DNA from: Podarcis vaucheri
Taxonomy: Eukaryota
Strand: one strand, 5' to 3'
Assembly (NCBI GenBank): GCA_965113315.1
Contig: OZ220368.1
Length of the DNA: 64,000 nt
Under the pieces are notes generated by a model. The model searched no databases, was not told the DNA's origin, and saw nothing but the letters and a program-made list of their open reading frames with translations. Shown piece by piece: positions 1,571 through 64,000 of this stretch (position 1 is the first letter of the stretch; each line of letters opens with the position of its first letter). A program made the position numbers and the translations under genes.

Positions 1571-1623
1571 TTGGGAATCATTGTGATTACTGTATAGTTA
1601 CCAGTAATCACAATGATTCCCAA
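1571..1623. repeat. Perfect 22-bp inverted repeat, 9-nt spacer
   Basis: TTGGGAATCATTGTGATTACTG (1571-1592) / CAGTAATCACAATGATTCCCAA (1602-1623). Confidence 0.9.
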
Positions 1624-5083: not shown

Positions 5084-5315
5084 GTAGGCCTGGGAAAAGA
5101 ACTTCCTGTCTAAAATCCTGGAGAACCACTACCAGTCAATGTGGACAATACAACGTAGACATTGGCTGGCCCAATGATTTGACCTGGTGTAAGACAGATT
5201 CCTGTCTTACACCAGGTCAAATCATTGGGCCAGCCAATGTCTACGTTGTATTGTCCACATTGACTGGTAGTGGTTCTCCAGGATTTTAGACAGGAAGTTC
5301 TTTTCCCAGGCCTAC
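5084..5315. repeat. Perfect 114-bp inverted repeat with 4-nt loop
   Basis: Arm 5084-5197 is the reverse complement of 5202-5315; loop ATTC. Confidence 0.97.
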
Positions 5316-5683
5316 GGAGGGACGCGGGTGGCGCTGTGGGCTAAAGCCTCAGCGCCTAGGGCTTGCCGATCGAAAGGTCGGCGGTTCGAATCCCCGCGGC
5401 GGGGTGCGCTCCCGCTGCTCGGTCCCAGCGCCTGCCCACCTAGCAGTTCGAAAGCACCCCCGGGGGCAAGTAGATAAATAGGTACCGCTTACCAGCGGGA
5501 AGGTAAACGGCGTTCCGTGTGCTGCGCTGGCTCGCCAGAGCAGCGTTATCACGCTGGCCACGTGACCCGGAAGTGTCTGCGGACAGCGCTGGCCCCCGGC
5601 CAATAGATGTGAGATGGGCGCACAAACCCCAGAGTCTGGCAAGACTGGCCCGTTCGGGCAGGGGTACCTTTACCTTTACCTTT
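5316..5683 (+). mobile_element. Sauria SINE, full length, young
   Basis: GGGACGCGGGTGGCGCTGTGGG head, GGTTCGAATCC B-box, (ACCTTT)n tail, CpGs intact; TSD TAAGACAGATTCCT at 5190-5203 and 5683-5696. Confidence 0.95.
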
Positions 5684-5846
5684 AAGACAGATTCCTATGT
5701 ACCTGTTCCATGTCTGGAACTATCCCTATTTGTCCTGCCTCAACCTGTGTCCCTGCTGTTTGTTTTCTACTCATTCTTGACCCTCAGTAGTGATATACTT
5801 TGGAGATCCTGATTCTCTGGAGGCCTCATCTTACCTTGAAGCACTG

Positions 5847-6800
5847 TGCCTTGGCTCCCACCACAACAGAGGCTCTTACTTGACAATAAGGAAAAAAACT
5901 TCTATTGAGGCAGAGGAAAGGTATAGGCTCAGCAACAGGGAGTGATACTGTCACAGCAGGCTAAGAAGCAGGAAAAGTGAGACTAGGTGGGCTAGAAGCA
6001 GAGGTCCAAGTTTGAGGAGTCCAAGATCAGGGCAAGAAACTCTGAACAACAGGGAAGCAACAGAGCTGTCCCAGAGGAATGGCCCCAACTTTTCAAAGGT
6101 GAGGCAAGGTGATCTCACTCGTGGGACTCCTGTGCCTTGCAATACTGTTGAGAGTGCAGGCATGCACTATGTTGGGGAGGATGGGTCTGTTTCCTGTCAC
6201 AGGAGCGCCACCAAGTCCTGGGTGACCAAGTTGTGCCCTCCCCTTCCCAGGGGTGGATTCTGGGCACTGGGCCAAGAAAGCACCATCTCCAAGCCTGGTA
6301 CGTGAGGCACTGGGCTTTGGGAAGGAGGTGTGAGGCTCTGGTAGGGTCCTAGAGTCCTTCCACCTCCTTCCCAAAGCCTGGTAAGTGTTTTCCCAGCTTG
6401 GGAAAGAGGCGGGCTCTGGGACTCTGTCAGGGTCTCTGCCTGTTTTCCAAAGCCTGGCACCTCGTGTAGCAGGATTTGGGAAGGCAGCAAGAGGGCTGGG
6501 GGCAAAATTTGACCTCACACAGGGCATCTCACACCATAGTACCTACGTCTGCCACTGCCCTTCTGGCTCCTGTTCCTCCACCACCAACAGTTAGTTGACA
6601 CCCTCCCCTCATTCCACTGAGGCTCTCCTCCTCCCAGGAGGGAAGTGAGGAGGCAGAACTCCAGCTTCTGCATCCAGAGAAGCTGTATCCTAGGAGAGAG
6701 AAGCACCCATTTTATCCAGCCTCTGTTCCTTGCCCCCCCCCCATTGCATGCTTCTCTTCTCCCTCCTCATCCATCTCTGCCTGCGTTGGGACTCATGGCA
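5847..6800 (-). mobile_element. Solo LTR (about 954 bp)
   Basis: TGCC...GGCA termini with perfect 5-bp TSD CACTG (5842-5846, 6801-6805); orientation tentative. Confidence 0.7.
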
Positions 6801-9800
6801 CACTGCTGAAAATAAACTGCCTGATAATATCCACAGAGAATACAGATTTCTGGTTGAATTGGGATGGGTTGGGGACACAGGGCCCACGATGAATCTCCCT
6901 GCCCCCCTCCACCAGCCAAGACATCAATCACCACAGTCACTCAGTCATAAAAATGTCTAGCCTCTATGCTTTGGCAGTCTAAACAAACCCTAATGGAATT
7001 TGTTACTCTACACTATATAAGCAGAGCAATTGCTAATTGCTTTCCCCACACGTTCATTAAACATTTAACCAGCATTTCCACATACAAATGGCATATAACA
7101 AGGTAGCTTTTGCAAGATCATTTTGTATATAGTTTCCGAAGACGCTAATTGATGTTTAATGGTTTTGTAATTGATCTCTGTCATATCGTACCAAGGGGGG
7201 GAGAATGTTAGAACATATTATAGCAAAATGAGAATTGGTACACTTTAATGTAATATTAACAACATAACCAAGATACACATTTACCACAGTGACATAAAAC
7301 TGAGATAACTTAGAGAGGAAAAAGATTGGCAGTCTGGGAAAAAAATATCTAAAACTTTTTTCATTTATTTGTTGAATTGCCAGTAACATTATAGAATGAC
7401 AGTTATAACCAATGGCTGTGAGAGGTACCCACAAAATTAAACCTCTCAGTGTGGACCATGTGTTCTATTTTAAGTTTCATCCTGATATGAAGCAGTGATA
7501 CGTTTGATAAGTAAAGAATATCCTTGCTGTACTGTCAAGGTGATACAAAACGGCTCTCTGTGGCGGTAGATGGTCCACTCACACTTGGAAGTCATTTCTT
7601 GATTCTGTAGTCAACAATTGATGTATGTGGCATGAATGTCAACTGGCTATATGGTTTTGCAACACTAGAGGGAGAAAAGTTTCAGTGTTTCCTGACCTTG
7701 GGTTGTGAGGGACTACCATCTAGATTTGAAGCAGTCAAGTCCTGGGTGAGCTAGCTTTTATGTTATTAGTGGTAGCACCTGCTATCAATGCATTGTGAGG
7801 ATTTCTTTGGAAGCTTTCAGGAAGGCAGAGCAGGTTAAGACCTGGAATTAGGGAATGCTCCCTAATATTAATAGAGGCACATGAATGGCAGTCTACTTAT
7901 TAGGAGTGATGTGTCAGGACATATGTGTTTGGGCCTAGCATCCAAAGAAACCAAAATTTTCATTTTTTTCCTCACAAGCTCAACCCCAAGCAAGCAGGAG
8001 GGAGTCCCCTCAAAGAGATAAACATGCCACAAATGATGCTGGACTACAATTCCCATCATCCCTGGCCTCTGTCCATGCAGACTGGGGTTGATAGAAATGG
8101 TAGTGCAATAACATCTCAGTGGTGCCACGTTGCTACTTTTGTGCCACATTGTCTATTACCAGGGAACCAATCCCTCTGTGCTCATGACTAAAAAGGGCCA
8201 ACATTAGAAAAGAATATAGGAAGGTCTTATATTTGTCTGGTCAGTATAATGACTAGGAGTATCATTAGCCAATCTGGCTAGGAGGAAGAAGCAAGGAAGT
8301 CTGAAAGAAGAAGGGCATCACACTTTAGCACAATCTTCCTACTCACTTGATTGTGGCCTTTTGTGTCATTTTTACCTAAAGTATGTCTAGCCTAGCATAT
8401 TCAGAGACCATCAGAGAGGCTCAGAGGGAAAACTCCACAGGAATCTAATAAGCTGTTTGGCCCTATGTCTGCTAGATAGCTTTGAAGATTCCTATTGGAG
8501 CCCCCATCCAGTTAGAAAGGAAACGTGAACCACAGCAACTTTAACAGGGACTACAATTGCCTAGTGGTTGATTGTGAAAATGTCTATTCCCTCAGCAACC
8601 CTGCAAAAAGACTTTCTCTGATCTGCAAAGCCTTCAACTCGCTTATTTAAAGATCCCACATTTGTACTAACAAATCCCAACTAAAGAGTCATATAGGTAT
8701 AAATACTTCTATTTCATATGTTATTTGGCCAAAACTTAGTTATGCATTTGTGTGGTGAGCGACACCTGTACACCAAACACCACCTATGTAAAAATCCATG
8801 CTGTTTTATTCTGTTTTGAAGGCTTAACAAGAACTTCAGCATCCTTTCCTCTTTCCATTTTTAGTTGTTATCAATGTTCTTTTCAGAGTTGTCATCTAAA
8901 CTACCAGCATTCTTTATTTATCCTCATCAAGCCATCTTCTGAGCCATTTAATGACTAGACTCCCAATATCGAACTGTTCTCTCATTATGTCATCTTCCTC
9001 CCTGTGTAAATTATTACTTGGCAATGGCTCTTTTCTCACTCTGTGGCATTTGGTTTCTGAACTAAACTTTCAGAACAAGTCTGGGTCTTTAAGATCAGAA
9101 GTCAGATAGAATGTCAAGACAATAAGTCTGCTGAGGATCTGCAATTTTATTGTTTTTCCTCCATTGTTTATTTTAAAGGATGCAATCAAAATGAAGACAA
9201 ATGTGCCTGGAAAAAAAAAAGCTGCCTTGAAATTTCATACCTTTTTAAAAAGGTTATTTGAATAGCATGGAAATTGCTTATAGGAAGGACTTTGAACTAT
9301 GCCACATTGAGGATGGATTCAAAGTTTTTGAATCATGGCTTTTTTCCCATACTGGAACACTTTAGCATTACTGGGTCTTTGCTAAACACAACCATCCATA
9401 AGTGGAATTAAAAGAGGGGTTCCACACCATACTTAATATTGCAGGATTTGCTCTTCAGAGGCAAACAATAAGATCATTTACAGATTACCATTTTTTTCTG
9501 ACAAGATGCCTGGAATGATGGGCATTGTGTTGTGCAGACACAACTGAGCAACAGAAAATTGTGGGTGTTCTTAGGCAGAATGTGATGCAGTCTGGGAAAA
9601 TTGCTTATTTCACTGCAGCAAAGGCCAAGATAATTTGTTTTCTGTATACGTGGTTCTTCCCACAACTTGTGGTGTTCCCAAAACTCACGATTACCTGCTT
9701 TGGGGAAATGAATTTGCTCACCATGTAATTAATACTTGGAAGTAATACAGACTGAAGATTATTTGCTAAAAATTGTTCTACAGCTTGGGATGAAATATGA

Positions 9801-10885
9801 CCTTCCTAATGTTAATTTGCACTATGGCTATGTGCACACCATGCATTTAAAGCACTTGACTTACCCCAAGGAATCCTGGGGACTGTAGCTCCTTAAGGAT
9901 GCTAGGCATTCTAGCTCACTGAAGGGTCAAGCACAGTTCCCAGGTTTCTGTGGGGGAAGCAATGTGATTTAAATATACAGTGTGTATGCAGCTGATACTA
10001 ATTTGGTTTAAAACCTCACTCATCTGAGGGCCAAGTCCTAGACACCAATCATGATGGCTGGTTGCCATCATACAATAACCCTCACTTGTGAGTCTCCTCA
10101 CATGTAAACAAATACATGAAAGGGGAGGGGGGTTCTTCCAGGCTCCTGTCTCCTCACATCTAGTGAGTCACCTTTTACCTTTTGCAGCCCTCGTGAGTTT
10201 GAGAGGAGAGGAAACTTCTCTACTTGCAGAACCTCTAGGTGCAGTTTTGAACTCAGATTGTGCCATGCAAAGAGACTGAATTGCTAAATATTCATACCTA
10301 CCCACCCGCACCCCAAGAGAGAAACTGACTGGCCTGTCACCCAGAAATGATATCACAAAGTGGCATCACTAGGCCAGCGTAGACTGGAACCGAATTACAT
10401 AGCAGTGCTATGATAGGTTTTGCTGGAAGAAGACATGGGGTGGCATGAGGAGACATGGGAAGGTATTCAGGTAGGTTTTACTCGGAGCGGACACCTCAAA
10501 ATGAATGGACCTAACTTACTCATGTACAGGCATTTCTACTCTGTGTGAAACTGATTGACTACTACCTCAAAAGATAGAGAGGAGGGCAGAGTGCAGAAGG
10601 GAGGAAAGCTGAGAGGGAAGAAATGTCACAAAGTCAAAAAGACTGAGGGCACTTCTAGACTGTCATTGTTTTCAGGTGGGATTCATTGCATCCCAGCAAA
10701 TTCAGACTACACAATTAAAGCTCTTGCAAAACAAGCCTTCTTCAGAAAAAGACAAGTCCTTTTTGCCATATGGAAAGTGACCAGAATATGCATTGGAATG
10801 TGTTGCTTTGATTCAACAATGTGTAACGACCCCACAAATCAGGATTAATATGCATTAAATAGCTGAAATTGTCTAAGCTCTAAGC

Positions 10886-11021
10886 CAGGCTTCCTCAACC
10901 TCGGCCCTCTAGATGTTTTTGGCCTACAACTCCCATGATCCCTAGCTAGCAGGACCAGTGGTCAGGGATGATGGGAATTGTAGTCTCGAAACATCTGGAG
11001 GGCCGAGGATGAAGAAGCCTG
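10886..11021. mobile_element. hAT MITE
   Basis: Near-palindromic, TIR CAGGCTTC.TCA.CCTCGGCCCT; 8-bp TSD CTCTAAGC/CTCTATGC. Confidence 0.85.
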
Positions 11022-11093
11022 CTCTATGCAAATAAGTCAGGCTGAAAGTGACCACAGAGAGTGAGTAGGGAGAGAAAAGTAGAAGGTCACTTA

Positions 11094-11400
11094 GGGCTTA
11101 TCCACACTTAACTTTTGACCCACTCTTTCCAGGTACAGGTCCATGCTTTAAAGCTCTGTGTCTGAGTGCCTCCCTTTCCCCCCCTCTGGAGCTCTTCCAG
11201 CAAAAACCCATTCTTTAAAGCTGAATTGGAGCAAATGGCTATTTGGGTTTTCCATGGATTACCATTACTATTCAGCTTTAAAGAGTAAATTTTCACAGAG
11301 AAGGATACAAAGCCAAAAGGGGGGGGGCACTCAGACACAGAGCTTCAAAGCATGGACCATGCCTGGAAAGTGCAGAGGAAAGATAAGTGTGGATAAGCCC
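11094..11400. mobile_element. PIF/Harbinger MITE
   Basis: TIR GGGCTTATCCACACTTA, extended inverted arms, TTA TSD on both sides; related partial copy starts at 58241. Confidence 0.85.
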
Positions 11401-12386
11401 TTACTTGGTCTATTGAGAACATTAGGTTTCATTTTCAAGTAGGCATGCATAGGATTGGGTACAAATCAGGAACAAGAAGGAAGGTCTGTATTTTTTCTCT
11501 TTACCCTTTTAGCAAGTTACTGGTTCAAATTAATTAGCTCTTCTCTGTGAATTCCTAATTTCTAAGGGTCCTTAAAAGATTGTTCTGGCATTTCCCAGTG
11601 TTAATTGGGTTCTGTTTCAATTGCAACAAAATAAATATTTGGCCCTCCAGTATGGAAAAAGAAAACACCTGAGATCCTTGTGTGAACAAATTTTCATCCT
11701 TCAAAGTCCTTGTCTAAACAGACACAGGAAACAAAGGATCAATAGGAATACCAGACTAGGCAGAATAACAGAAGGACCTTGTTTCTTTCAGTATTTCCAG
11801 GTATGCTTATCAATGCCTTTCTTAATGATAGGTTTGTGTCATTTGCGTAGCAGCTGATAATGAATGCCCCTGCATTCAGAATAATAGTTGGAGCAGGGAA
11901 GATTTTACTCTTCTTAAAAGTTGGTTTCATTTTTCTTAAGATAGAACTGGTTAGATTCTGTTCTAAAAGTTATTACCTTATCTGCTCTGAGTCACTATAG
12001 GGAAGGCTTTAAAAAATCCAAATAAATTCATGTAACATTCTGCTAAGACACCACTGGCAATGAACCTGACATTTTCCTTTGTAGGGACAATCATGTAGTT
12101 GCTGCATAATAACCATGTCACTTTTCCCCCTTTTCTTTTGCAGCATATTTTTTCAAGGTAAAAAGGCATACTGAGCTAGTAGACAATTTCCAGTAAAGGA
12201 AAGATTTGTTAGTCTTAATTCAAGCAATTTCATTCTATTGTTGTCTTAGATTTTACAATGTAGATTATTATCTTTCTCTCTCTTTCTTGCATGCTGCTGT
12301 CATTTTATTGATTCAGGTCTGTTGAAGCCAATAAGTTTCATCCCATCATTAATAGTTTGGAGTAGCTAGCACCTCTTTTTTCAAGT

Positions 12387-12654
12387 CAAATCCTGAAGCT
12401 GAGACTCCAATACTTTGGCCACCTCATGAGAAGAGAAGAGAAGACTCCCTGGAAAAGACCCTGATGTTGGGAAAGATGGAGGGCACAAGGAGAAGGGGAT
12501 GACAGAGGACGAGATGGTTGGACAGTGTTCTCGAAGCTACCAGCATGAGTTTGACCAAACTACGGGAGGCAGAGGGAGACAGGAGTGCCTGGCGTGCTCT
12601 GATCCATGGGGTCACGAAGAGTTGGACATGACTAAACGACTAAATAACAACAAC
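12387..12654 (+). mobile_element. BovB 3' fragment
   Basis: ATCCTGAAGCTGAGACTCCAATACTTTGGCCACCTCATG...GGGGTCACGAAGAGT, (CAA)n tail. Confidence 0.92.
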
Positions 12655-13063
12655 ATCAATATTTTACTACTTATTAAAACTCCCATGGTTTTTCTTGAAA
12701 TTCCTTAGCTGTTGCACCAGGAAGAACTTTGCTTTGAATTTCACTTTTGGTTACATTTCAGTGGCAACTCAAGTTGACTTGATGGCTAACTCGCTTTTGT
12801 TTAGGGAATTCATTGTTTATAGCCTCACTTGCCCTATTAGTGAAGTGAATGTCATGCATACAAACATGTTATACATACCTGCCAAGTGCCCCAGAAAAAA
12901 ACTCGGACATCCTGCTTTGTTGTGTGAGATTGCGGTGGCCTTTTTAGGTGCCACACTCTCACTCCCAAAAAACGTGACTCACCCAGGTGTACACCCCAGA
13001 AGTTGCACGTCCTGTTTTTCGGGTGTGAAAAAAGTTGAAATGTATGGTTGTATACCAAAATTT

Positions 13064-13795
13064 GGGACGCAGGTGGCACTGTGGCCTAAACCACTGAGCC
13101 TAGGGCTTGCCGATCGGAAGGTCGGCGGTTTGAATTCCCGCGATGGGGTGAGCTCCCATTGCTTGGTCCCTGCTCCTGTCAACCTAGCAGTTCGAAAGCA
13201 CATCAAAGTGCAAGTAGATAAATAGGTACCGCTCTGGCGGGAAGGTAAACGGCGTTTCCATGCACTGCTCTGGTTTTGCAAGAAGCGGCTTAGTCATGCT
13301 GGCTACTGTCTGCGGACAAATGTCGGCTCCCTCAGCCAGTAAAGCGAGATGAGCGCCGCAACCCCAGAGTCGTTCACGACTGGACTTAACTGTCTTTTTT
13401 TTTTTTAGAAGTTTTTATTGGATTTTACAAAGTATAGAAGAAATGCAAAGACAGGAGCAAGAAAAAAAAATAGAAGCACAAATACATACTACAAAATACA
13501 ACAACACACACATTAAGCACAAAAGATACAAAATACATACGTTAAAAACTAATAACAAAAAGAAAAGCACATATAAGAAAAAACACAAAAATTCCTTCTT
13601 TCTTAATTTTAGATCTTAAATTCACATATTCTCCTGACTTAAAGGATCCTACAGAGAGTCTGTGCTCCAGACCCTGATTGGTACTAGCTAATTTTGGTAT
13701 AAAAGGTAAAGGCAAAGGACCCCTGACAGTTAAGTCCAGTCCACGACTTAACTTTCAGGGGTCTTAACTTTCAGGGGTCCTTTGCCTTTACCTTT
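13064..13795 (+). mobile_element. Sauria SINE interrupted by a poly(A) retroelement and an inverted duplication
   Basis: Head at 13064, tail ends 13795; TSD TATACCAAAATT at 13051-13062 and 13796-13807. Confidence 0.92.
13395..13638 (-). mobile_element. Poly(A)-tailed retroelement 3' UTR fragment (L1/Tx1-like or retrocopy)
   Basis: T12 run at 13395-13406, minus-strand AATAAA just inside, U-rich body on minus. Confidence 0.7.
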
Positions 13796-13858
13796 TATAC
13801 CAAAATTAGCTAGTACCAATCAGGGTCTGGAGCACAGACTCTCTGTAGGATCCTTTAA
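13639..13858. repeat. 96-bp inverted repeat (1 mismatch), 28-nt spacer
   Basis: 13639-13734 is the reverse complement of 13763-13858; spacer holds a 16-bp tandem duplication CTTAACTTTCAGGGGT. Confidence 0.93.
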
Positions 13859-14423
13859 ATATTTTGTGTGTGATTTAAGGTATTGCAAGGAGAGAGTTTG
13901 GTCATGAAGAATGTGCATCTGAGGGTGTTTCCTCCCATAGAAGACCCACCCAAGTCAATTCCTATGGCTTTCTTTTTCTTTTTGCAGATCCCATATTAAA
14001 AAAGGAACAGAAAAGAAAAGAAAAGGAGGGTCTTTAAGTTTCTTCATGTCAGTCATTTGCTCTTCAGCAATCTTCCATAGTAAAATTGTGTCTTGCTGCT
14101 GCAGCACTGTAGCACTCATTGGACAGCCTTGTAGTCCCAAATGGTGTACTGTTGCATTTTCTGGATTCATTCAGGAAGATCTTTTGTAAAAGCTGGTCCA
14201 AGAGTGATGCAAAACCAAAGAGCCATCATTAATGCTATCGGTGTACCATTCCTGTTTTTATAGGGTTCAGTAAATGTGATCCCTGCTCAATTATTAATGA
14301 GCTGTCTCACTGAACTGAAGAAAGAGTAGGGGGGGGGGAACAGGACCAGTTTTGCTGCTGAAAACCAGTTGTCTATAGAGTCTAGGCTGAACCTACTTCA
14401 CATATTGTGCTGTCTACACTGTA

Positions 14424-14664
14424 CAGTGGAACCTTGGGCTATGTACCATCCTCCTTACGAATGCTTCAGGTTACGAGCGCCGCTAATCGGAAAGTAGGTG
14501 CTCCTGGTAGCGAACTTTGCTCCAGGATGCGAGCAGAAGTCGTGCGCTGGTGGTGCGGCAGCAGCGGAGGCCCCATTACTGAAAGAGCACCTCAGGTTAA
14601 GAACGGGTTCAGGTTAAGAACGGACCTCCAGAATGAATTAAGTTCGTAACTGGAGGTATCACTG
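14424..14664. mobile_element. Tc1/mariner (Tigger-like) MITE
   Basis: TA-CAGTGGAACCT ... AGGTATCACTG-TA. Confidence 0.85.
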
Positions 14665-15429
14665 TATATGCATTTCCATGTAGGGAAAGCAACAATCAGG
14701 GGCACTAGTTAAATGCCCCTATTACAACCAAACTGCAATTGATAGGACACATTGAGTGGACATGCTTCACTTGTTTCATGGTGCTGCTGGTGCTACTTTG
14801 ATGTCTTCTTGCACCTCTGCAGCACCATGTATCTCTAGGCCCAGGTTGCAGTTTATTTTTAAATCTAGTGTGAATTCATCTGAGAGCTTGAGTTAGAAGA
14901 CACACAAGTCAAAACATCTCATGATAATTGTTTCCAGAAGCCGCATCAGCAGCTTGATTGACGTATTTCTCATCAATAAGTTGGGCATGTTTACTTCTGT
15001 GTACCAAGCATTTTTGCATAAGTGGAAAAGGCACCTTCTCGGGGATGATGGAAAAGTATTTTGGAAATGAGTGAGGTCAGGAATTACAGAAATCATCCAG
15101 CCATTACCACCTAAGGCCAACCCTCTTCTGAATTTTGGTTTGGCATCAGGCTCTCCTCCCTTTCTTCCTTTTTTTCAAGTTTACCAAGTTGTGATGGGGG
15201 AAAGAAGGGGAGGACAAAACAACGGCTGAGAAGACTTTTTAAATCATTCAACTCTGCAATGAAAGCTTCTGAGCATGTTTAGAATCTGTGCTGCTGATGT
15301 GATCTCAGGGAAGACCAATTTTCAGCTCATTATTCATTGACCAAAGACTTGTTCATATGTTACACCAAACACATGTACAAACTGTCCGTACGCATGTACA
15401 CATGTTTGTGTGAAAGCATGTTCACTATT

Positions 15430-15722
15430 CAGCTCAGATGCTGAGATCTAGCTCCAAGGGCCTTCTGGAAGTTCCCTCACTGCAAGAAGTGAGATTACCG
15501 GGAACCAGGCAGAGGGCCTTATCAGTAGTGGCACCCACCTTGTGGAACACCCTCCCTTCAAATGTCAAGGAAATAATATACAACCTTTAGAAGACATCTG
15601 AAGGCTGTCCTGTATCAGAAAGTTTTTAATGTTCAATGTTTTGTTATGTTTGTATATATGCTGGAAGCTGCCCAGAGTGGTTGGATTAACCCAGTCAGAT
15701 GGGGTACAAATAATAAAATTAT
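15430..15722 (+). mobile_element. L2 LINE 3' fragment
   Basis: Homologous, in opposite orientation, to 16490-16790; RAxSVVAPxLWNxLP-type C-terminal motif and AT-rich tail. Confidence 0.8.
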
Positions 15723-16436
15723 TTTGGGGGTGATGACACTTGTTGAATTGTGCAACTGAGCTATTGTGCACACAGGTACATGCACTACATACCCAATGAT
15801 TATTAGATTTGAATAACTATCGGTGTGTACAGCTCAGCATGGGCACACTGATTTTATGCTAATTGATTTTAACATGGAAGTGGCCATATAAGCGATGTTA
15901 GAAGAATTTGCTAAAGTCAGGAGAGGCAAGCTAACCCAAGGATGATGGACAATGGGCAGCTCTTCTATAGTAATTAATAGGATTGTGAAAGCTGCATAAG
16001 ATGTTTCATAGTGCAATACTCTGCATATCTACTCAGAAGCACCATTGATTTTATTGGGGCTTTCTCCCAAATAAATGGCTAGAGAATTGTAGCCTCCGTC
16101 ATCTTTTTTTATTTTTCATACCAGGTAAATTAATGAACCTATCTACCAGAGGTTCTTGTAATCCTTTTGCCAGCCTCTCAGAAAAGAAATGTCAAGCACT
16201 GCAGCAACTTGATTTTCTGTTCTAACAATTAGAGTATATCACAGGCCACACAACAAGATCAATACCTGTCTGGTAAACTGTTAATAAGTGACAGCAAAAG
16301 ACTGAATGTCTATAAAGAAATAACTTCTTTAAATGCCATTTTTGAAGAAACCAGAGCCACCATATTTATTTATTTACTTATAATTTACTCAATGTATAAT
16401 TAAACCATGCATATCTCATCTATCTTGAATCAGATA

Positions 16437-16456
16437 TAATAATAATAATAATAATA

Positions 16457-16492
<36 letters not shown>

Positions 16493-16822
16493 TTATTTAT
16501 ACGCCGCCCATCTGGCTGGGTTTCCCCAGCCACTCTGGGTGGCTTCCAACTGAATATTAAAAACAATACAGCATCAGACATTAAAAACTTTCCTGAACAG
16601 GGCCACCTTCAGTTGTTTTTTAAAAGTAAAATAGTTGTTTATTGCCTTGAAATCTGCTGGGAGGACGTTCCACAAGGTGGGCGCCACTACCGAGAAGGCC
16701 CTCTGCCTGGTTCCCTGTAACCTTACTTCTTGCAGCGAGGGAACCGCCAGAAGGCCCTTGGAGCTAGATCTCAGTGTCTGCGCTGGATGATGGGGATGGA
16801 GGCGCTCCTTTAGGTATACAGG
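16437..16822 (-). mobile_element. L2 LINE 3' fragment with (AAT)n tail
   Basis: ORF 16574-16834 has YLKERL...TLRSS...RAFSVVAPTLWNVLP...FKKQLK, an L2 ORF2 C-terminus. Confidence 0.88.
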
Positions 16823-16859
16823 TATATATTGCAAAACATTGGCTGCCAGTTTGTTTTCA

Positions 16860-17430
16860 GGCTCAGTTCAAGGTACTCAGTGTTTAAACCTTTTGGCCTC
16901 CCAAATTGGAAAAACCATTTCCTCCCCCAAAGTCCATGTCACAGGTTAATATTGTCAGAGTGAGGATCTTTTGGAAGTTCTCCACCCTAGATGGAGGTGG
17001 CATCCCGGGAGAGGGCATTCTCTGTAGAAGCCCTTAAGCTATGGAATTCCCTCTCTGCAAAGGTGTATCTGGCATCTTCATTCTGAAGTTTTCATCAGAT
17101 ACTGAAGGCACACCTCTTTGCCCTGGCCTTTGACATGTGAGATGCAAATTTTAAGACAACACAGATCAGAAATAACTTTGTATGCCCATCTCTACTCTCA
17201 AGAAGAATGTGTATACCTAATGCATTATGAATCTTAGGCACCTGCTGCTGATGCAACCTTTTTGCTTTTGCACATTTTAGCGGTATTACTGTTTGTGTCT
17301 ATGCCTGTTGCTATTGTTTCAGAATTACTGTTTGCCGAGAGTGGTTTTTATTCCTGCTTATTATTTATGTTGTGTTTTACATTTTTGGTAAAAAGCAGGG
17401 AATAAATATTTTAAATAAACAAATAAATAA
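16860..17430 (+). mobile_element. Older L2 3' fragment
   Basis: GAGAGGGCATTCTCTGT...CTATGGAATTCCCT...CTGAAGGCACACCTCTTT motif and AAAT tail. Confidence 0.6.
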
Positions 17431-19007
17431 ATATGCACAGGAAACCCATTGCCAACTGTGGCAGATGGAACTCTTTGAGTACATGGGGCACTTTCCCTTG
17501 TCATTGCACCATTTGCTACCATATAGCTAGATGGCAGCCCACGTGTTCATTCTTTCTGGATCTGGTCATACCGCATGCACAGACTGTCCACTTCTGTCTT
17601 TGCATCCAAATTTGTTGCATTCCCAATGGTGAGAAAGATGCCCTATGTTTCTTCCACATTCATAGCAGCCAAACCTCTGTCTCAGGAAATGCAGGTGCTC
17701 AGTGTCATCTATGGCACTGGCCAAATGTGTTCATGACCAATGGCTCACATCACACTCATTTCTTCCAGCTGTTCTGTCATAGCGATTTATATAGGAAGGC
17801 AAACTCAGGAAATATTCCTGATTGCAAGGTGGGGGCCAGCGGGCACTGAACATGTATTTTTGGTGTTGGAGACCTGCAGTTTGTCTTTCTCTGCCTTCTG
17901 GAAAAATGTGTATACCTCATTTATTTGCCTTTTCAACTTCATTGGCTCTCTTGATTGGCTATTACTAGGCAATAGCCAAATGCTTTTTTTTTTTAAGAAG
18001 AAAAAAAGAGAAAAGAACGGGCTGATCATAGCAATGGTAGCCAAGGTTTCCTCTGCATATTTTTTTACAATTTATTCCTCTTGTTTTACAGCCAGGCTTC
18101 TGCTAGCGCTTGGACTGGTTCAATACACTCTACTAAATGTTCATTGTATCTGCCACCTTCTTATCCTATTTCAGTAGAAAGAAATCAATGGGAATTGATT
18201 TTGAAATGTCCAGCCTTATCAGGTATTGACTGAGAAGATAGTACTGTGTATGGATTTTAACAAAGCCTAGAATGCGGGAAATGACAACCTAGGACTAAAA
18301 GGATGGTTGGATTCTCGCTTATTTTACAAGTTTATCCCTCTCATTGCCCCTGGCCCTTGGATAGTGCCAATTCCCTCTTGATGGCTCTCCACTAAAGCCG
18401 GATTCTAGTGGAATATTACATGGGCTGGAGGAAAAAGCAGTTGCACTTGGAAATACAAACGGTGCCAGCAAATGCTATTTCAGCAATTATCCATGTTTAG
18501 CAATTATGCTAATGTTGATTCTCAAAAGGCTGTTATTTGCTCAGCATGTTCTTCATACATTATCTCTGTACCTGTCTAACCCTGTATTTTCACATGCACT
18601 ATTACAGGTTGTTTGTCAAGTTAAGTGATGTTTTCAGTAGGGAGTGTTGTCAAGGCACTGTTGGTTTTGCAGGATTCCTAGTCCCACCCACCCTACTTTG
18701 CAAATCCTACACAGTTTCTGCCATGAACAGAAAATTGCAGAAGCCTTAAAGGGGAGAGGAACAAATCTCACCGTGTTCACAAAAGCTCTTTTTGTTCCCT
18801 GAAAGGAGTAGTGAGGGCTTTGGTTTAGAATACAAAGGTGGCCAACTAGCTAGTGGGTTCTTTGATGCCATGTTTAACAGGAAGATGGCTATTCAGAGCC
18901 ATTCAAATACTAATTTAAGATACTCTGGAAGTTTGTAAACCAAACAGTATCAAATATTTTAAAGAAATAAGGACAGATAAATAAAATATGTCAGAATATG
19001 GAGGAAG

Positions 19008-19520
<513 letters not shown>

Positions 19521-20039
19521 GGACTAAACTCTCCATAGGCTGGAGTCACTTCACCTTGCAGATAGGCAAGAAATCGTTTTAGTAGTTCAAAAAAATATAT
19601 GTCATTGCTGTGACCACCTTTCTCCTTCCTTGCTTGCTTCTGTGATTTGGCTCAGGGGAAGAGAAGTACTCATAGGGATGGAAGGTATCCAATTCTAAAT
19701 GCTTTTAGCAGAGCACATTGCATGTGTGTAGTGCACACTGGGAAGGGGGATCAGCTTGCTGGAGAGGAATGGGCAGATGGCAATTTGGAATTCTTCACGG
19801 AGGTTTGATTTGTTAATGCTAAATCAATTGGGAACAAGGCTTACGTTCTCCATGCTTCCACCACTGAGCAGCATCTTGTCTGCATCCTTGAAGATAGCTT
19901 TGTTTTAGATGCTGTTCAGATAAATCAGGATTCTAAGGCTGCCAGTTTGCTGTGAAAGAGCGCACAGTTTAGGAGATATGAAATCCTGCCCAAAACCTCC
20001 ACTACAGGGCTCCTCCTTTAGAATGTTTCTTTCGTGGAT

Positions 20040-20440
20040 TGGGATGGGCGAATCTGACAACTGTGGCTTCTCTCTGTGTCTCAGTTTTTTTAAAAAATCT
20101 TCAGTGTGATTCACCATATTTATGTATCACTTTGTTTTTTTGTGTTTTTTTTAAAGGTCCTCGTGAAAGTTCATCAGCATTTCGGTATGCAAGTCTGCCT
20201 AATAGACACATTTTTGCAAAGTAATTCTCCTTAATAGATGTTATTTTCAACAATATCTGCATTTTTACACACTCTTCACCCTTGTATATACATTTTTGTG
20301 CACACTATTTGCACTGCACTGAAAAATTCAGAGAAATCAAAGAATGGCTGTGTTTTGGATTGCATACTGTTTCACAAGTTGCAGATTAGGTAAGTCCCTA
20401 TTTAAATGTGAACACGATCAGACTTCAACCCCAACCCTAC
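20040..20440. mobile_element. Non-autonomous DNA transposon (AGGGATGGG-type termini), old
   Basis: Similar to 42176-42940, about 30920-31110 (reverse) and about 48990-49182; shared GAATGGCTGTGTTT...TTTAAATGTGAAC block. Confidence 0.6.
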
Positions 20441-21180
20441 CTACCTATAGGTGGTTCATCTTGCTAAATCCCCATATCCAGCCCCCAGGGCAGTGTGAAC
20501 TGTTTCCCCTATAGAACAGAGATTTCAAGAATAATGCTGAAGAGGCATGCCCCAATGGCATATTTGGAGTGAAAGAGACTGGATCCATGCACCCCCTCTT
20601 TTTCCCATTCCTCCCAACAGAATATTGTGACTGCATGCATATGCACTACTGAGCATCTAGGTCTATGGAATGGGTCCAAATCTTTCAGCTGTGACATGCT
20701 ATTTACTATGCGTACTGTCTGGGCAATTCATCTTTAGCATAGGTAATTCATTCCCTCTGGCCGCTATACTTTGCCTTCAAAATTCAGTCAGAACTCAGCT
20801 CCACATTACATTCTTTAATCTTAGAATATTCAGCTTTACCTACAAGCACAGAGCATAATGCACAACATTAAATTTAGTTGGGCATTTCAGGCAATATCAG
20901 ATGATGTCATTCCACTGGTGGAAGGACCTTTGAACTGGCAGAGGAAATCGTTAACACAGGCAGAGGGGAGGCATTTCCCCCCAAGTCCCCATCCCCATGG
21001 AATCCCCCTGTGTACACCCCCCAACAAAGTGCAGGACCCACCAGACCAGTGTGTAATATTGCTTGTGAGGTGTAGGGAGCAACACCAGAAAAGGGAGTTG
21101 TCAGAAAAAGAAAACACACACACACACACACACCTTCTTCCATTTTAACAGATACCTCCACTGGATTAAAAGCTTTTGCA

Positions 21181-21990
21181 TGTTCAGACCCAGAAACCTC
21201 CCCCCTAAATAAATTCACACTTGACTCAAATTTGGTTTTTGGTTTTAGGCAGAATTTAGGCCACAGCTTTATTGATTACAGAAAGTGAATGGTTGCATAG
21301 GCTGTGGTTCGACTAGCTCCCTGCCATGCAGGTACTGTAGTGCTGACCCAGGGTTCCAGCATAGGTCAGCCAAGGGTGAACACCTAGATAAGCAGAAAGC
21401 CGGGGACAGGCTATCTCCACCACCCAAATGTCCCCCTGGACTCAAGCATGGGCACAACCTCCTCTCAGGGGTTTACCAAGCTATCGAGTCCCTGGATTCC
21501 TTTAATGGAATACCCTTCACATAGGGATGGTGAGTGCGTTCTCCCATCCCTATCACCTGAATCAGAGCCTATCCGCAACCTTACAAGTTGTGAAGATTTG
21601 CTACGCGGCAGGCGAAACCCAAATGGCAATAGCCAATCAGCCAAGTGGGGAAAATCCTGCCGTGCCCCTGTCCCAACGACAGGTGACACATGAAAGCATA
21701 GCAAGGTCAAGCGCAAAGCCCTAAAAGTAGGGAGAGGTGTGTGTGTGGGGGTGTTCTGAATGTACGCGCCGAAAGAGGAAGCTCTGGGTCATGTGCATGG
21801 GTATAAATAGGTCCCTTGAAGCGTTTGGACTGTGTCCCATTGGCCAGATTGCACCCAGCTACGAGGGACCTACCAATCAGGTGTTGTGGCTGACCAATCG
21901 TACCCACCCACAACACAGGGTGTCGGTGTCTAGGTCTCACCACAATACATGCCCTCTTTAAGGGAGGACCCGATTTCCCAGAGAAGAGCA
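21181..21990 (-). mobile_element. Solo LTR (about 810 bp)
   Basis: TGTTC...GAGCA termini, 5-bp TSD TTGCA/TTGGA; CCAAT cluster about 21840-21900, TATA-like box about 21803-21810, minus-strand AATAAA about 21268-21273. Confidence 0.75.
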
Positions 21991-24900
21991 TTGGATATCA
22001 GCCTTTGCTTGGAAATACTGGTAAATAAGTAACTAAAACTTTCTCACAACTGCATACAATTATAAAGAATGCTAGCAATTTTCATTGTAACTTTGGCCAT
22101 TAGCAGAAAGTAAATGTGCTTCCCTTCTGTTTATGGTGTACTAAAAAACTTTAAAAAAAGAAAAGAAAATCAACGCATTAAACAACTTTTTCATATATAT
22201 ATATATAAAACCAACCTACAGTGACAATAAAGATGAAACTAAACTAAGTTCTAAAAGCAGGAAGGCTGCATGTAGGGTGACACGAATATAGGATACAACT
22301 AGTGTGAGGGCTATCTATCTCAATAACTCATGCCAGAAGTGAGAGATTAAAGCCTATCCAGGAAAATCAAATATTTTGGCCATAGAATGCTGTGATATTG
22401 CTACGAGAACCTTCACAAAGAAGTATTCATCTTCAAACGCTAAAGCCAAGCAAAGTCCGATGTGGACTGATTTGGCAACTCTTGGCTTTGAGGGGAGTAA
22501 CTGAGCTCTAATTGTGTCCTCCTTTAAATGGCTACATTAAATGGCTCCTATTGAAAGGTGGCTCTTTCCACCCATGTCACGTCCTTTAATGGACAAACTG
22601 TTCTTTATTGAAGTTGGCTTTTCCTTTTCTCATTGGAACGGCTGCATCAAAGCTCTTTTCTAATATGCTGTCCCATTTCCGAGCAGCTTAGTGTTTGGCA
22701 CTTATTTCTTGCTGTTGCCTTTTGCAAGTTCCTCATCAATTAAAGTTTTGGAGATATTTTTCTTTTAAATCAAGACAGAGCCATGATATTTAACTAAACA
22801 ATGATGAAAGTGTCAGTAAAAGCACATTAAGGAATGGTGCTAAAGGCATTTTCAACTGTGACTATAAGGACTGCACTGAATGTTCTCCTATTGAAAGTAT
22901 TCTTTTAGTCTTGGTCTCTTTCATTATTTCTCCTCTCTGTTATGGATTAGCATCATTCCTCCACTTCTCATTATTGCATCTTCTTCCTGATAGGCATCAT
23001 GGCTCATCCCAGACAATTCTTTTAATGGATGCCTGATTATATATTGTACCTTCTGTATGTTTATTTCTTGTTTTGTAATTTGCTGTAAGACTTTCACTAA
23101 ACTAAGAAATTGGGAATCACAAGTGAACAGGGTGATGTCATGATTTGGGATGTCACAGAATTCCAACAGAAAAGAATAAGTGTGCAAAAAAAAATTCAGT
23201 TCATGCATTTGTTCATTGTCAGGAATGGATCGTGAAAATGGAGGTTGCATTTGTTGCCAGTAGATTCACCCCCACCGCCACCCTCACAGATATGCAATTA
23301 ATAGCATTAATGAAGCTTGATTAGCTGTTTATTTTAACATGGTTACTAATCTGGCATTTGCATTCTGTAGACTATAATGGCAGAGAAAAGATAAATACAA
23401 TTTACATATTCTTCAACTCCTCCTGTCATGATGAGGTGATGATGGTTGTTGATTGTACCCTTTGCTATATTCTAACTTCTTGTTGTGCGTGCTATGATGC
23501 TCCACGCATTTACTTGGATATAAGCTCCACTGAAACCGACTTCTGAGTAAATATGTGCACCACACCTTTTGAGAACCACTGCCTTAACTGGATGTAAACC
23601 CCACTGAATTCTATGGCATCTATTTCTGAGTAGAGAAGGCTTGCAAATTATACATTTGTACTCCCCCCCAAAAAAAAACCTGTGAGAAATTTGCTCAGTC
23701 CTCGCCCCCTGTCATCTGTAGCTGTGTCAAACATCATTAGCACCCTGAAGGCATGAGGCACAACTGAAATTAGTCAATATCTGCTCCTTCTTGTCTTCTG
23801 TGTATAGGATTGAGGCTGCAATCCTTAACTCCTTACCTGAAAGTAAGCCCAATTGAATTCAATGGGTCTCGCCTCTGAGTAGACATATTTACGCTTGCAG
23901 CCTGTGCTACTACTACCATTCTCCTCCAACTGTCCAAGTGTGCTGGGCATCTTGATGGGTCATTAGCTACTTCATTTACTTCAAAAATGCAATTCTAAAA
24001 CACAGAAGAAGCAGGAAACACTTTAACATGAAATCAGGTGCCGATAACAACAAAAAGCATGTACCATTCCGAGCATAGGGAAACATGAGTTGAATAATGG
24101 TGTGTTTTGCAGAAACTGAATTACAGCACAAAGGAATCAGCTCTTCATCAGGCAAATGCATGACAGAATGGACATTGCTAACTTCATCCCCAGTGCATAG
24201 AAAAATAACCACATAGGACCTCCCTACATGACTTCTGCGCGTGCATTTCGCTGGGTTACAAACAGTTCAGATTCTATATGCAGACATTTGTATACACATA
24301 AGCTCTGAGATCAGAGATAAGCGTCATCCCACTATTTTCTTCATTCTTAATGTGACAGAGGTAGCATATTAATAGAATTACAGTGTTTGACTTGCAAAGG
24401 TTTCATGTTGAGCTGCTGCTAGGGTCTCTGAGCTAGGTTTTCTTTTTTTGCAAGTGGCTTCTGGCTGATCCATATGGAATCAGATGATTTGTGGCCTGTT
24501 CTTGCATGAGGCCTAAGTATCCTATCATTAGGTTTGTAAAATAATGTTTGCTATGTTGTGTTTCAGCTCTGGGTGCTTTCCTTTGCCTTCCTGCTACCTG
24601 AATTAGCATCCCTGCTGCCATTCAGCAGGAAATGTGGGGCTTGTGTAAAGAGGGAAAGATGACTCCAGTGCTATATGTGTGAGGATTAGAGTTTGCTGTT
24701 AATAGCTTTGAGCTCAAAGCAGCTTGAGAATGGAGGGGGAGATCTGATTCAAAGAAGAAAAATGATAATTTGGGCCTGGAGGGAATTGGGGAGAGCCTTG
24801 GCCAAATTGGAAATTACCTTTTGGTGCTCTTACGCTGTAATCCCTGCAACTCCAATTATAGCAGAAAGATAAACTGTTTGACGGTGTCTTACAGCACCCT

Positions 24901-62717: not shown

Positions 62718-63514
62718 GGTGCTTTCGGCTTCTTGTTACTGGAACAGAGCAGAGTCTGGTGTTTGAGTTCCTATAAATACTGTTGAGGGGTGTGGTGTAT
62801 AGCCTCCAACGTTCTGGGCAGAGAGGAAGTTCCTAGATTAGTGTGCCTTTTCTTCTTTTGTTCCTTAATTACTTGAGGGATATCTTGGGTGATTTCATGA
62901 GTGATATTCTGAATATCACTGGGTGGGTCATTAAGTGTAGATTAGTTGCTAAAGCTTTCGTGTCTTGACCTCTTGAGCTTGTGAAGAGTTTTTCTGAGAA
63001 GATGGCTGTGCTGCATTTAGTTGTGCTCTGGCTTGGCTTCGTGTATAGGGGCGAGCTATGGTTTTGTGCCTTGTGCCAGCCAGATCTGTGTAGGGATTGC
63101 AGGGGGGTGCAGCATCCGGAGGTGCCACTATAGTTTGGCTACTGGATGGAGTCTGTAATATGTCTGTGGAGAGGGTCTGGGTTTGGGTCTGGTATGGTTG
63201 ATTGGTGACGGCGTTCTGTGTGCCTCTGGTTCTGGTGTCGGTTTTTGTGGGGAGGGCTAATTTCCAGATGTCTGGCAGGCGGGACGTGTCGTCACGCTTG
63301 TTCATGTTGTGAGGGTGTTTCTCTATCTCGATGGCTTCCATGATTATTCTCTTGTGGTGATGTTCCATGTTAAAGAGCAATTTGGAATCTGCAAAATTAA
63401 TTTCGTGTCCTGTTTCTTTCATGTGTTGGAAAAGAGAGGAAGTTTTTTCTTCTTTTTTGACGGCATTCTTGTGTTCTGCGATACGTGCATTTATTCGTCT
63501 GTTTGTTTGTCCAA

Positions 63515-64000
63515 AAAGAAACACCCCCCAAAAACCAAGACACAGAAGAAAACAATGGCATGGCCCTCCTTCCTTATATCAAGGGCACTACAGACAAAAT
63601 CAGCAAAATCCTCCATAAACACAATATCAAAACAGCCTTCTGCACCAACCAAAAAATAGCCAATATCCTCAGAAACCCAAAAGACAAAATCCAGCTGGAA
63701 AACCAAGGGGTCTATGAAATACCCTGCAAAGTCTGCCCAGCCACGTACATTGGACAAACAAACAGACGAATAAATGCACGTATCGCAGAACACAAGAATG
63801 CCGTCAAAAAAGAAGAAAAAACTTCCTCTCTTTCCAACACATGAAAGAAACAGGACACGAAATTAATTTTGCAGATTCCAAATTGCTCTTTAACATGGAA
63901 CATCACCACAAGAGAATAATCATGGAAGCCATCGAGATAGAGAAACACCCTCACAACATGAACAAGCGTGACGACACGTCCCGCCTGCCAGACATCTGGA
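63515..64000 (+). pseudogene. Penelope ORF fragment: RT thumb/linker plus GIY-YIG endonuclease (frameshift near 63832)
   Basis: LPYIKGTTDKISKIL...GVYEIPCKVCPATYIGQTNRRINARIAEH; the left arm continues H...HEINF...EAIEIEKH...MNKRD. Confidence 0.88.

What the first reader, a model, noticed from the sequence alone, without database searches (positions are those of the whole stretch)
13375..13858. Second, independent fold-back of target DNA at the 5' junction of a poly(A) retroelement
Seen: a minus-strand poly(A) element (13395-13638) sits in a Sauria SINE 3' end. At its 5' side is a 96-bp inverted copy (13639-13734) of the adjoining flank, covering the SINE tail, the SINE's TSD and unique DNA. 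Then come a degenerate target duplication (CACGAC[TGGAC]TTAACT(G/T)TC) and a 16-bp tandem stutter. Inference: same geometry as at 5084 but a different tail type (poly(A), not ACCTTT), so the snap-back may come from host repair (e.g. Pol theta-type templated synthesis) rather than one RT. Two such events within 9 kb suggest it is common in this lineage.
Basis: partly seen in the sequence, partly recalled or inferred. Interest (0 to 1): 0.78.

Follow-up and report, generated by a model that had tools for sequence, protein, structure and literature searches.

The report
L1 insertion with folded-back flank copy
A short piece of an L1 jumping gene sits beside a perfect 103-base backwards copy of the DNA it landed in, likely made when the cut chromosome end folded back and copied itself; the same accident is already described in human cells, and it is rare in this reptile genome.

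Summary
The structure is real. A 246-nt, 5'-truncated, young L1-clade LINE (13395-13640, minus strand) sits in a Sauria-type SINE. Between its 5' end and its 20-nt target duplication lies a 103-nt copy (13639-13741) that is a 103/103 reverse complement of the rebuilt empty site, running across the first nick. It joins the L1 through 2 nt of microhomology. The right target copy carries a 5-nt deletion, a G>T and a 16-nt duplication, all at the palindrome centre. Best reading: the free 3' overhang folded back, primed itself, was extended and unfolded, then joined to the cDNA; the centre was revised afterwards. This outcome is published for human L1 in a cell clone and a tumour. The polymerase (host or ORF2p) is not determined; Pol theta is not shown. 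'Common in this lineage' is not supported: 0 of 184 SINE and 0 of 36 true L1 5' junctions outside the window carry such a copy. The scan noted similar flank copies at Penelope-type insertions in three earlier findings from other genomes (unchecked). New member of a known kind.

The parts
13051..13062 (+). left copy of the host SINE's 12-nt target duplication (begins TA)
   Evidence: family D7; right copy at 13796-13807
13064..13394 (+). host Sauria-type SINE, 5' body up to the L1 first-strand nick (older element, at most 91% to siblings)
   Evidence: left-flank contigs of four runs from three organisms run into its 5' end
13375..13394 (+). left, intact copy of the 20-nt L1 target duplication
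13395..13640 (-). 5'-truncated L1-clade LINE, 3' UTR only: A12 tail (13395-13406), AATAAA (13414-13419)
   Evidence: 40 matches listed, self included; ORF2 C-terminus of sibling L008 matches human L1 ORF2p, E 8.8e-26; 1 private substitution in 232 columns against 12 siblings
13639..13640 (.). 2-nt microhomology shared by the L1 5' end and the inverted arm
   Evidence: all 29 sibling alignments begin at these two bases
13639..13741 (-). 103-nt inverted copy of the pre-insertion target: 17 nt of the target duplication, SINE tail, SINE target duplication and flank
   Evidence: 103/103 to the rebuilt empty site
13742..13744 (.). 3-nt loop of the inferred fold-back (end of the top-strand overhang)
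   Evidence: sequence; role inferred
13742..13756 (+). right copy of the L1 target duplication, with a 5-nt deletion between GAC repeats and G>T at 13754
   Evidence: centre read identically in run X15
13747..13778 (+). 16-nt tandem duplication, both units with the T (13754, 13770)
   Evidence: family D6
13773..13858 (+). template arm beyond the first nick: SINE tail, SINE target duplication (13796-13807) and flank; 86/86 complementary to 13639-13724

Best explanation
A young, truncated L1 copy is joined to a perfect 103-nt reversed copy of its own target DNA, likely made when the free 3' end of the cut target folded back and was extended by a host repair polymerase before being joined to the L1 cDNA. 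Steps: (1) inferred: L1 ORF2p nicked the + strand after 13394, primed on the poly(A) and made about 246 nt of cDNA; a second nick 20 nt away left a 20-nt 3' overhang on the other end. (2) inferred: that overhang turned back around a 3-4-nt loop with only 0-2 bp of pairing and was extended for 103 nt, through 17 nt of itself and 86 nt of flank that had been resected or was displaced. (3) shown as sequence, inferred as process: the new 3' end was released and joined to the cDNA end through 2 nt of microhomology, and fill-in gave a 103-bp palindrome with a 3-nt spacer. (4) inferred: the palindrome centre was then altered on the original arm only, first G>T, then a 5-nt deletion and a 16-nt duplication, leaving a 28-nt imperfect centre. 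It is an insertion scar with no sign of function. Odds about 0.85 for the fold-back geometry and about 0.55 for the whole statement with a host polymerase.
For: The copy crosses the first nick without a break and matches the rebuilt empty site 103/103, so its template was continuous there: in cis only the un-nicked strand qualifies. It starts 3 nt from the end of the target duplication and ends exactly at the L1 5' end. A 20-nt duplication without a TTTT/AA target is normal for this L1 family: many siblings show 15-22-nt duplications with varied first bases. The event at 5084 has the same build with a different element: 114/114, 4-nt loop, 1-bp priming. Human L1 gave the same outcome in a cell clone and a tumour, with 2-bp hairpin priming, and the authors ascribe it to remodelling of the reciprocal break end (10.1101/2024.12.14.628481 passages on Fig. 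4D-E; PMC11702581 supplement legend S9C). A templated direct-plus-inverted local copy between 26-nt repeats, with no retroelement sequence seen, lies about 73 kb upstream. Purified ORF2p was tested with primers of 5-10 nt and a 7-bp hairpin, more pairing than is on offer here (PMC10830420 passages). The three centre changes fall within about 25 of some 225 comparable nt in an insertion with 1 private substitution in 232 columns (post hoc p about 0.001-0.01).
Against: The overhang forms no stable 3' hairpin by itself (-1.6 kcal/mol, last 7 nt unpaired), so priming needs an enzyme or an added base; this is assumed. No sequence feature names the polymerase; ORF2p has DNA-templated synthesis, non-templated addition and template switching. 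No empty allele or unrevised intermediate was read directly: organism A's contig begins at the arm with two unmatched letters and three differences inside it, which fits an empty or older allele but does not prove one. The L1/arm joint was not bridged by a listed contig. Whether the centre changes came during or after integration cannot be told from one allele.
Confidence: 0.55

Rival explanations
1. Same fold-back, but L1 ORF2p itself (and the Bov-B-type RT at 5084) adds a base, extends the hairpin with strand displacement and then jumps to the cDNA.
For: ORF2p is an efficient DNA polymerase on DNA templates, adds non-templated bases, switches templates and extends short RNA hairpins (PMC10830420 passages). 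One extra G at the loop here could be such an added base. R2 insertions show snap-back junctions, mostly onto cDNA and less often onto nearby target DNA (PMC11371274 passages).
Against: Primers tested were 5 nt or more; here 0-2 bp. A similar templated scar without retroelement cargo lies nearby. Strand displacement was not mentioned in that paper's main text (0 occurrences).
Confidence: 0.25
2. The cDNA 3' end switched template, through the 2-nt microhomology, onto an intact copy of the target (sister chromatid or homologue), copied 103 nt back towards the cut and was then end-joined to the overhang.
For: 2-nt microhomology at the L1/arm joint. Extra 5' nucleotides of zebrafish LINE inserts often come from the flanks (PMC4245944 results passages).
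Against: The copy stops 3 nt from the end of the target duplication here and 4 nt from it at 5084; a hairpin explains this, an outside template does not. The in-cis + strand is broken at the nick and could not template the whole copy.
Confidence: 0.1
3. The L1 inserted normally, and a later, unrelated break at its 5' junction produced the inverted duplication and the centre changes together.
For: The centre changes show that the site was reworked after the arm was copied; private palindromes without a retroelement occur in the sample.
Against: The arm sits exactly between the target duplication and the L1 5' end with nothing lost from the flank; the insertion is young; the arm keeps the ancestral G and the 5 nt that the right copy has lost.
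Confidence: 0.07
4. Assembly or library artefact (fold-back chimera).
For: Palindromes are prone to such artefacts (recalled); the L1/arm joint was not bridged by a listed contig.
Against: A contig of run X15 spans the asymmetric centre with 0 differences, and its next contig begins at 13771, just past the base where the two arms differ. A chimera would copy the right arm as it is now, not the ancestral G and the missing 5 nt.
Confidence: 0.03

Closest known systems
L1 insertion with inverted duplication of genomic DNA on the reciprocal end (10.1101/2024.12.14.628481, Fig. 4D-E; earlier version PMC11702581, Fig. S9C)
   Same: L1 with poly(A) and target duplication; small hairpin with minimal pairing at the reciprocal 3' end; inverted duplication of flank joined to the cDNA end. 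The coordinates printed for the cell-clone case suggest a tract near 126 nt (my subtraction), close to 103 and 114 nt here.
   Different: Those are two somatic human cases; this one is in a reptile genome assembly, presumably inherited, made by a non-mammalian L1 with loose target choice, and its palindrome centre carries three further changes.
R2 (PRINT) 'snap-back' 5' junctions (PMC11371274)
   Same: Reverse-complement sequence of nearby DNA added before the 5' junction forms.
   Different: There the cDNA 3' end is taken as the primer and the template is mostly the cDNA; here the copy crosses the first nick and begins at the end of the target duplication, which points to the target's own overhang as primer.
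Flank-derived 5' extra nucleotides of zebrafish LINE inserts (PMC4245944)
   Same: Extra sequence between target duplication and element 5' end that comes from the flank; annealing-type join.
   Different: The passages read describe no 100-nt perfect inverted copy.
Twin-primed 5' inversion of L1 (model recalled; described in PMC11702581 passages)
   Same: The reciprocal 3' overhang primes DNA synthesis and an inversion results.
   Different: Twin priming copies element RNA; here no L1 sequence is inverted, only target DNA is copied.

Membership tests
L1-clade LINE | ORF2 related to L1 ORF2p, with C-terminal CCHC-type region | tested here: met
   Sibling L008, 453 aa, matches human L1 ORF2p residues 801-1224, E 8.8e-26; no Pfam family at E 0.1. 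The focal copy holds 3' UTR only and is tied to L008 by 91% DNA identity.
L1-clade LINE | 3' poly(A) after a polyadenylation signal | tested here: met
   AATAAA at 13414-13419 and A12 at 13395-13406 on the minus strand
L1-clade LINE | Target duplication of roughly 10-20 nt, frequent 5' truncation | tested here: met
   20 nt here; mostly 15-22 nt in siblings, most of them truncated within 1.5 kb
L1-clade LINE | Mammalian TTTT/AA endonuclease site | tested here: not met
   Nick lies in CTGTC/AGGGG; siblings' duplications also begin with varied bases, so this is a family trait, not a sign of endonuclease-independent entry. It marks mammalian L1, not the clade.
L1 insertion with reciprocal-end inverted duplication | Inverted copy of target DNA between target duplication and element 5' end | tested here: met
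   103/103
L1 insertion with reciprocal-end inverted duplication | Small hairpin with minimal microhomology at the inversion point | tested here: inconclusive
   3-nt loop with no pairing, or a 4-nt loop with 2 bp followed by realignment; read from the sequence; no stable fold predicted
L1 insertion with reciprocal-end inverted duplication | Arose in the same event as the insertion | not testable with these tools
   No clean empty allele or intermediate allele was read
Twin-primed 5' inversion | Inverted segment is element sequence | tested here: not met
   The inverted segment is target DNA; sibling alignments stop at 13640
Polymerase theta-mediated end joining scar | Microhomology at the joint and templated insertion from the flank | tested here: met
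   2-nt microhomology, 3-nt repeat at the deletion, templated arm; these marks are not specific to Pol theta (recalled)
Polymerase theta-mediated end joining scar | Genetic dependence on POLQ | not testable with these tools
   Needs a knockout assay
Sauria SINE (host element) | (ACCTTT)n tail and target duplication starting with TA | tested here: met
features as described in PMC13295347 passages.

The most novel reading that the evidence does not exclude
Self-primed fold-back of the reciprocal end is an element-independent host step that copies a set length of about 100-125 nt (103 and 114 nt here with two different retroelement types, about 126 nt in the human clone) and seeds perfect palindromes in vertebrate germlines; these are then quickly disarmed by mutations aimed at their centre, and this young locus has caught three such steps in a row.
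Probability: 0.25. Interest if true: 0.55.

Novelty: new member of a known kind. Interest (0 to 1): 0.3.

Why it matters
Modestly. It shows that an outcome known from two somatic human L1 cases can also persist in a reptile genome, for both an L1 and a SINE carried by another LINE clade. Because the arm is a frozen copy of the target at the moment of insertion, it records the order of later changes at the palindrome centre, which makes such loci natural material for asking how new palindromes are stabilised. It is rare (95% upper bound near 1.3% of junctions in my sample) and shows no sign of function.

Tried and rejected
Commonness: rejected on 0 of 184 SINE junctions and 0 of 36 true L1 junctions outside the window. 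Of 69 L1 loci examined, 41 had a resolved upstream boundary (the focal copy and 40 others) and 28 ran past the 1.5-kb flank and were not scored; 4 of the 40 were dropped as not being true 5' junctions (L009, L176 abut a DNA transposon; L014, L015 are an internally deleted duplicate pair). The long copies stay untested. SINE hits scoring 15 or more outside the window were a head-to-head SINE pair (L132, twice), MITEs in or beside a SINE (L054, L207) and an inverted SINE part (L300). Local hotspot: 200 kb beside the window held 10 short-spacer inverted repeats, 2 private, neither beside a retroelement, and only 5 SINEs with tails: weak test, no support. General scan of 1.77 Mb: 99 inverted repeats, 74 with a centre shared by another locus, 25 private; none outside the window was a flank fold-back at a LINE or SINE 5' end by eye. 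That filter also set aside the 5084 event, so it can miss fold-backs whose flank is itself a repeat; the junction scan did find 5084. L049 looked like a fold-back at an L1 3' end, but its target duplication shows that the inverted repeat was there first. Twin priming: rejected, the inverted part is not L1. Functional RNA: one Rfam match, mir-548 at 55 bits against a gathering score of 90, taken as a generic hairpin match. Gene context: 58 stop-to-stop frames listed in 6000-22000, not followed up. Orthologous empty allele: runs X2 and X6 did not cover most of the right flank and X1 was suggestive only; a second laying of reads gave no result, so the question stays open. Literature: 8 answered searches listed no report of this structure in a reptile; subscription papers are mostly not in the library. 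No paper on palindrome centre revision was read; that idea is recalled.

Full report
What is there. On the + strand a Sauria-type SINE starts at 13064, bounded by a 12-nt target duplication at 13051-13062 and 13796-13807. It is split after 13394 by a minus-strand element with an A12 tail and AATAAA (13395-13640). A search of the own genome listed 40 matches, self included. Longer siblings carry an ORF2 end; that of L008 (453 aa) matches human L1 ORF2p with E 8.8e-26, though no Pfam family scored. The insert is therefore a 5'-truncated L1-clade LINE. It is young: 1 private substitution in 232 columns against 12 siblings, 6 differences in 233 to the nearest. The SINE is older (at most 91% to siblings), and left-flank contigs of four runs from three organisms run into its 5' end. 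The genome is a Sauria-SINE-bearing reptile, likely a lizard; this is inferred from the SINE and from earlier scan notes.

The inverted copy. The stretch 13639-13741 is 103 nt, longer than the 96 reported. Joining 13378-13394 to 13773-13858 rebuilds the empty site, and the stretch is its exact reverse complement, 103 of 103. The copy therefore runs unbroken across the first nick. All 29 sibling alignments begin at 13639-13640, so these two bases fit both L1 and arm: a 2-nt microhomology. After a 3-nt loop (13742-13744) comes the right copy of the 20-nt L1 target duplication, which lacks 5 nt between two GAC repeats, has T for G at 13754, and lies in a 16-nt tandem duplication whose two units both carry the T. 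The outer 86 bp of the arms have no mismatch. A contig of run X15 spans 13714-13796 without a difference, so the odd centre is not peculiar to the assembly; X15 may be the same individual, and no listed contig bridged the L1/arm joint. A contig of organism A starts at 13771 with two unmatched letters and has three substitutions inside the arm, which fits an empty or older allele without proving one.

How it likely formed. L1 primes on the nicked + strand; the second nick leaves a 20-nt 3' overhang on the other end. A copy that crosses the first nick needs a template that is whole there, and in cis that is only the strand bearing the overhang. The copy starts 3 nt from the overhang's end. The simplest path is that the overhang turned back, was extended for 103 nt, was released, and was joined to the cDNA by 2 nt of pairing. 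The overhang has no stable 3' hairpin (-1.6 kcal/mol, last 7 nt free), so priming would rest on 0-2 bp, an added base or a realignment; this step is inferred. The event at 5084 is built the same way: 114 of 114, 4-nt loop, 1-bp priming, 13-nt duplication, joined to a full-length young SINE. The arm kept the ancestral G and the 5 nt, so the centre changes came after it was copied, and G>T came before the duplication. Three changes within about 25 of some 225 comparable nt is unlikely by chance (post hoc p about 0.001-0.01). They turn a 3-nt spacer into a 28-nt imperfect centre and weaken the predicted fold from -129 to -117 kcal/mol. This resembles centre revision of long palindromes (recalled; one search gave no paper that I read on it). 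Whether it happened during fill-in or later is open.

Which enzyme. Not determined. For a host step: two element types give one geometry; a templated scar with direct and inverted local copies between 26-nt repeats, without retroelement sequence, lies about 73 kb upstream; and the human cases are ascribed to remodelling of the break end. For the element's own enzyme: ORF2p copies DNA templates, adds untemplated bases, switches templates and extends RNA hairpins, though it was tested with 5 or more paired bases. Two tail types do not separate the two, since both reverse transcriptases could share the activity. Pol theta is possible, but a 103-nt error-free tract is long for it (recalled); a Pol delta-dependent route to inverted duplications in yeast appears in the reference list of that preprint (title only).

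How common. I scored 5' junctions for an inverted flank copy. L1: 69 loci, 41 resolved, 40 besides the focal one, 36 of them true junctions, 0 positive. SINE: 242 pieces, 191 with tail and flanks, 7 in the window and 184 outside; the only flank fold-back was the window's own 5084 event. Matches scoring 30 or more: 2 of 191 at 5' ends (5084 and a MITE), 0 of 191 at 3' ends, 3 of 1500 random positions. For 0 of about 220-225 the 95% upper bound is near 1.3% (for n = 225); for L1 alone it is only about 7-8%. A general scan of 1.77 Mb and of 200 kb beside the window added none. The searches favour copies close to my queries, and old arms under about 20 nt could be missed. Two events in 9 kb are best put down to the window having been picked for them; a local cause is not excluded.

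What is known. The 2026 version of the preprint 10.1101/2024.12.14.628481 describes an inverted duplication of genomic DNA on the reciprocal end of an L1 insertion in one cell clone and one tumour, with 2-bp hairpin priming (passages; section 6). Its 2024 version PMC11702581 gives the same in Fig. S9C (passages; supplement legend passages). R2 snap-back junctions are related but mostly cDNA-primed (PMC11371274, passages). Flank-derived extra nucleotides are known for zebrafish LINEs (PMC4245944, parts 2 and 3 of 5). PMC13295347 (passages) describes Sauria SINE and Bov-B insertion signatures; the words invert, inversion and palindrome do not occur in its main text. PMC10830420 was read as passages. 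Eight answered searches listed no reptile example. The scan itself noted inverted flank copies at Penelope-type insertions in three findings from other genomes (unchecked).

Verdict. Real, cleanly readable, a new member of a known kind. Confidence about 0.85 in the fold-back geometry, 0.55 in the full statement with a host polymerase. Interest 0.3; the residual interest lies in the similar tract lengths and the clustered changes at the centre.

Noticed in passing
window 5084-5697: Second fold-back: 114/114 arms, 4-nt loop, 13-nt target duplication, joined to a full-length young SINE (99% to siblings); centre unrevised.
   Followed up: yes
L303 7008-7413 (G000:C25, about 73 kb upstream of the window): A 26-nt direct repeat encloses a 41-nt inverted and an 81-nt direct copy of DNA about 250 nt upstream, with no retroelement sequence seen: a templated-insertion scar.
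   Followed up: partly
L024 1984-2191, L300 8695-8843, L005 2595-2693: Sauria-type SINEs whose 5' part is inverted with an overlap, resembling twin priming in a SINE not carried by L1.
   Followed up: partly
window 63263-64000: Nested inverted arms (195 nt, 94%; 84 nt, 100%) of element sequence that looks Penelope-like by recall; related perfect palindromes in L070, L096, L261, L266, L295.
   Followed up: no
L049 5762-5894: Private inverted repeat directly beside an L1 poly(A) end; a 13-nt target duplication at 5882 and 7735 shows that the L1 landed in a repeat that was already there.
   Followed up: yes
window 1571-1623; L042 7595-7659; L109 2790-2877 and 5981-6091; L199 2485-2640: Private short-spacer palindromes (arms 22-50 nt) with no neighbouring repeat found in the sample.
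   Followed up: no
L001-L030, L183-L200: This L1 family shows target duplications of mostly 15-22 nt with no clear TTTT/AA preference; one more copy (L194) also landed in a SINE 3' end.
   Followed up: partly
window 13818-14327: The right flank is covered in runs X15 and X1 but almost not in X2 and X6; absence in contigs proves nothing, but a deletion polymorphism beside the palindrome is possible.
   Followed up: no
window 15427-16788: 150-nt inverted arms, 87%, 1062 nt apart; looks like a DNA transposon with terminal inverted repeats.
   Followed up: no
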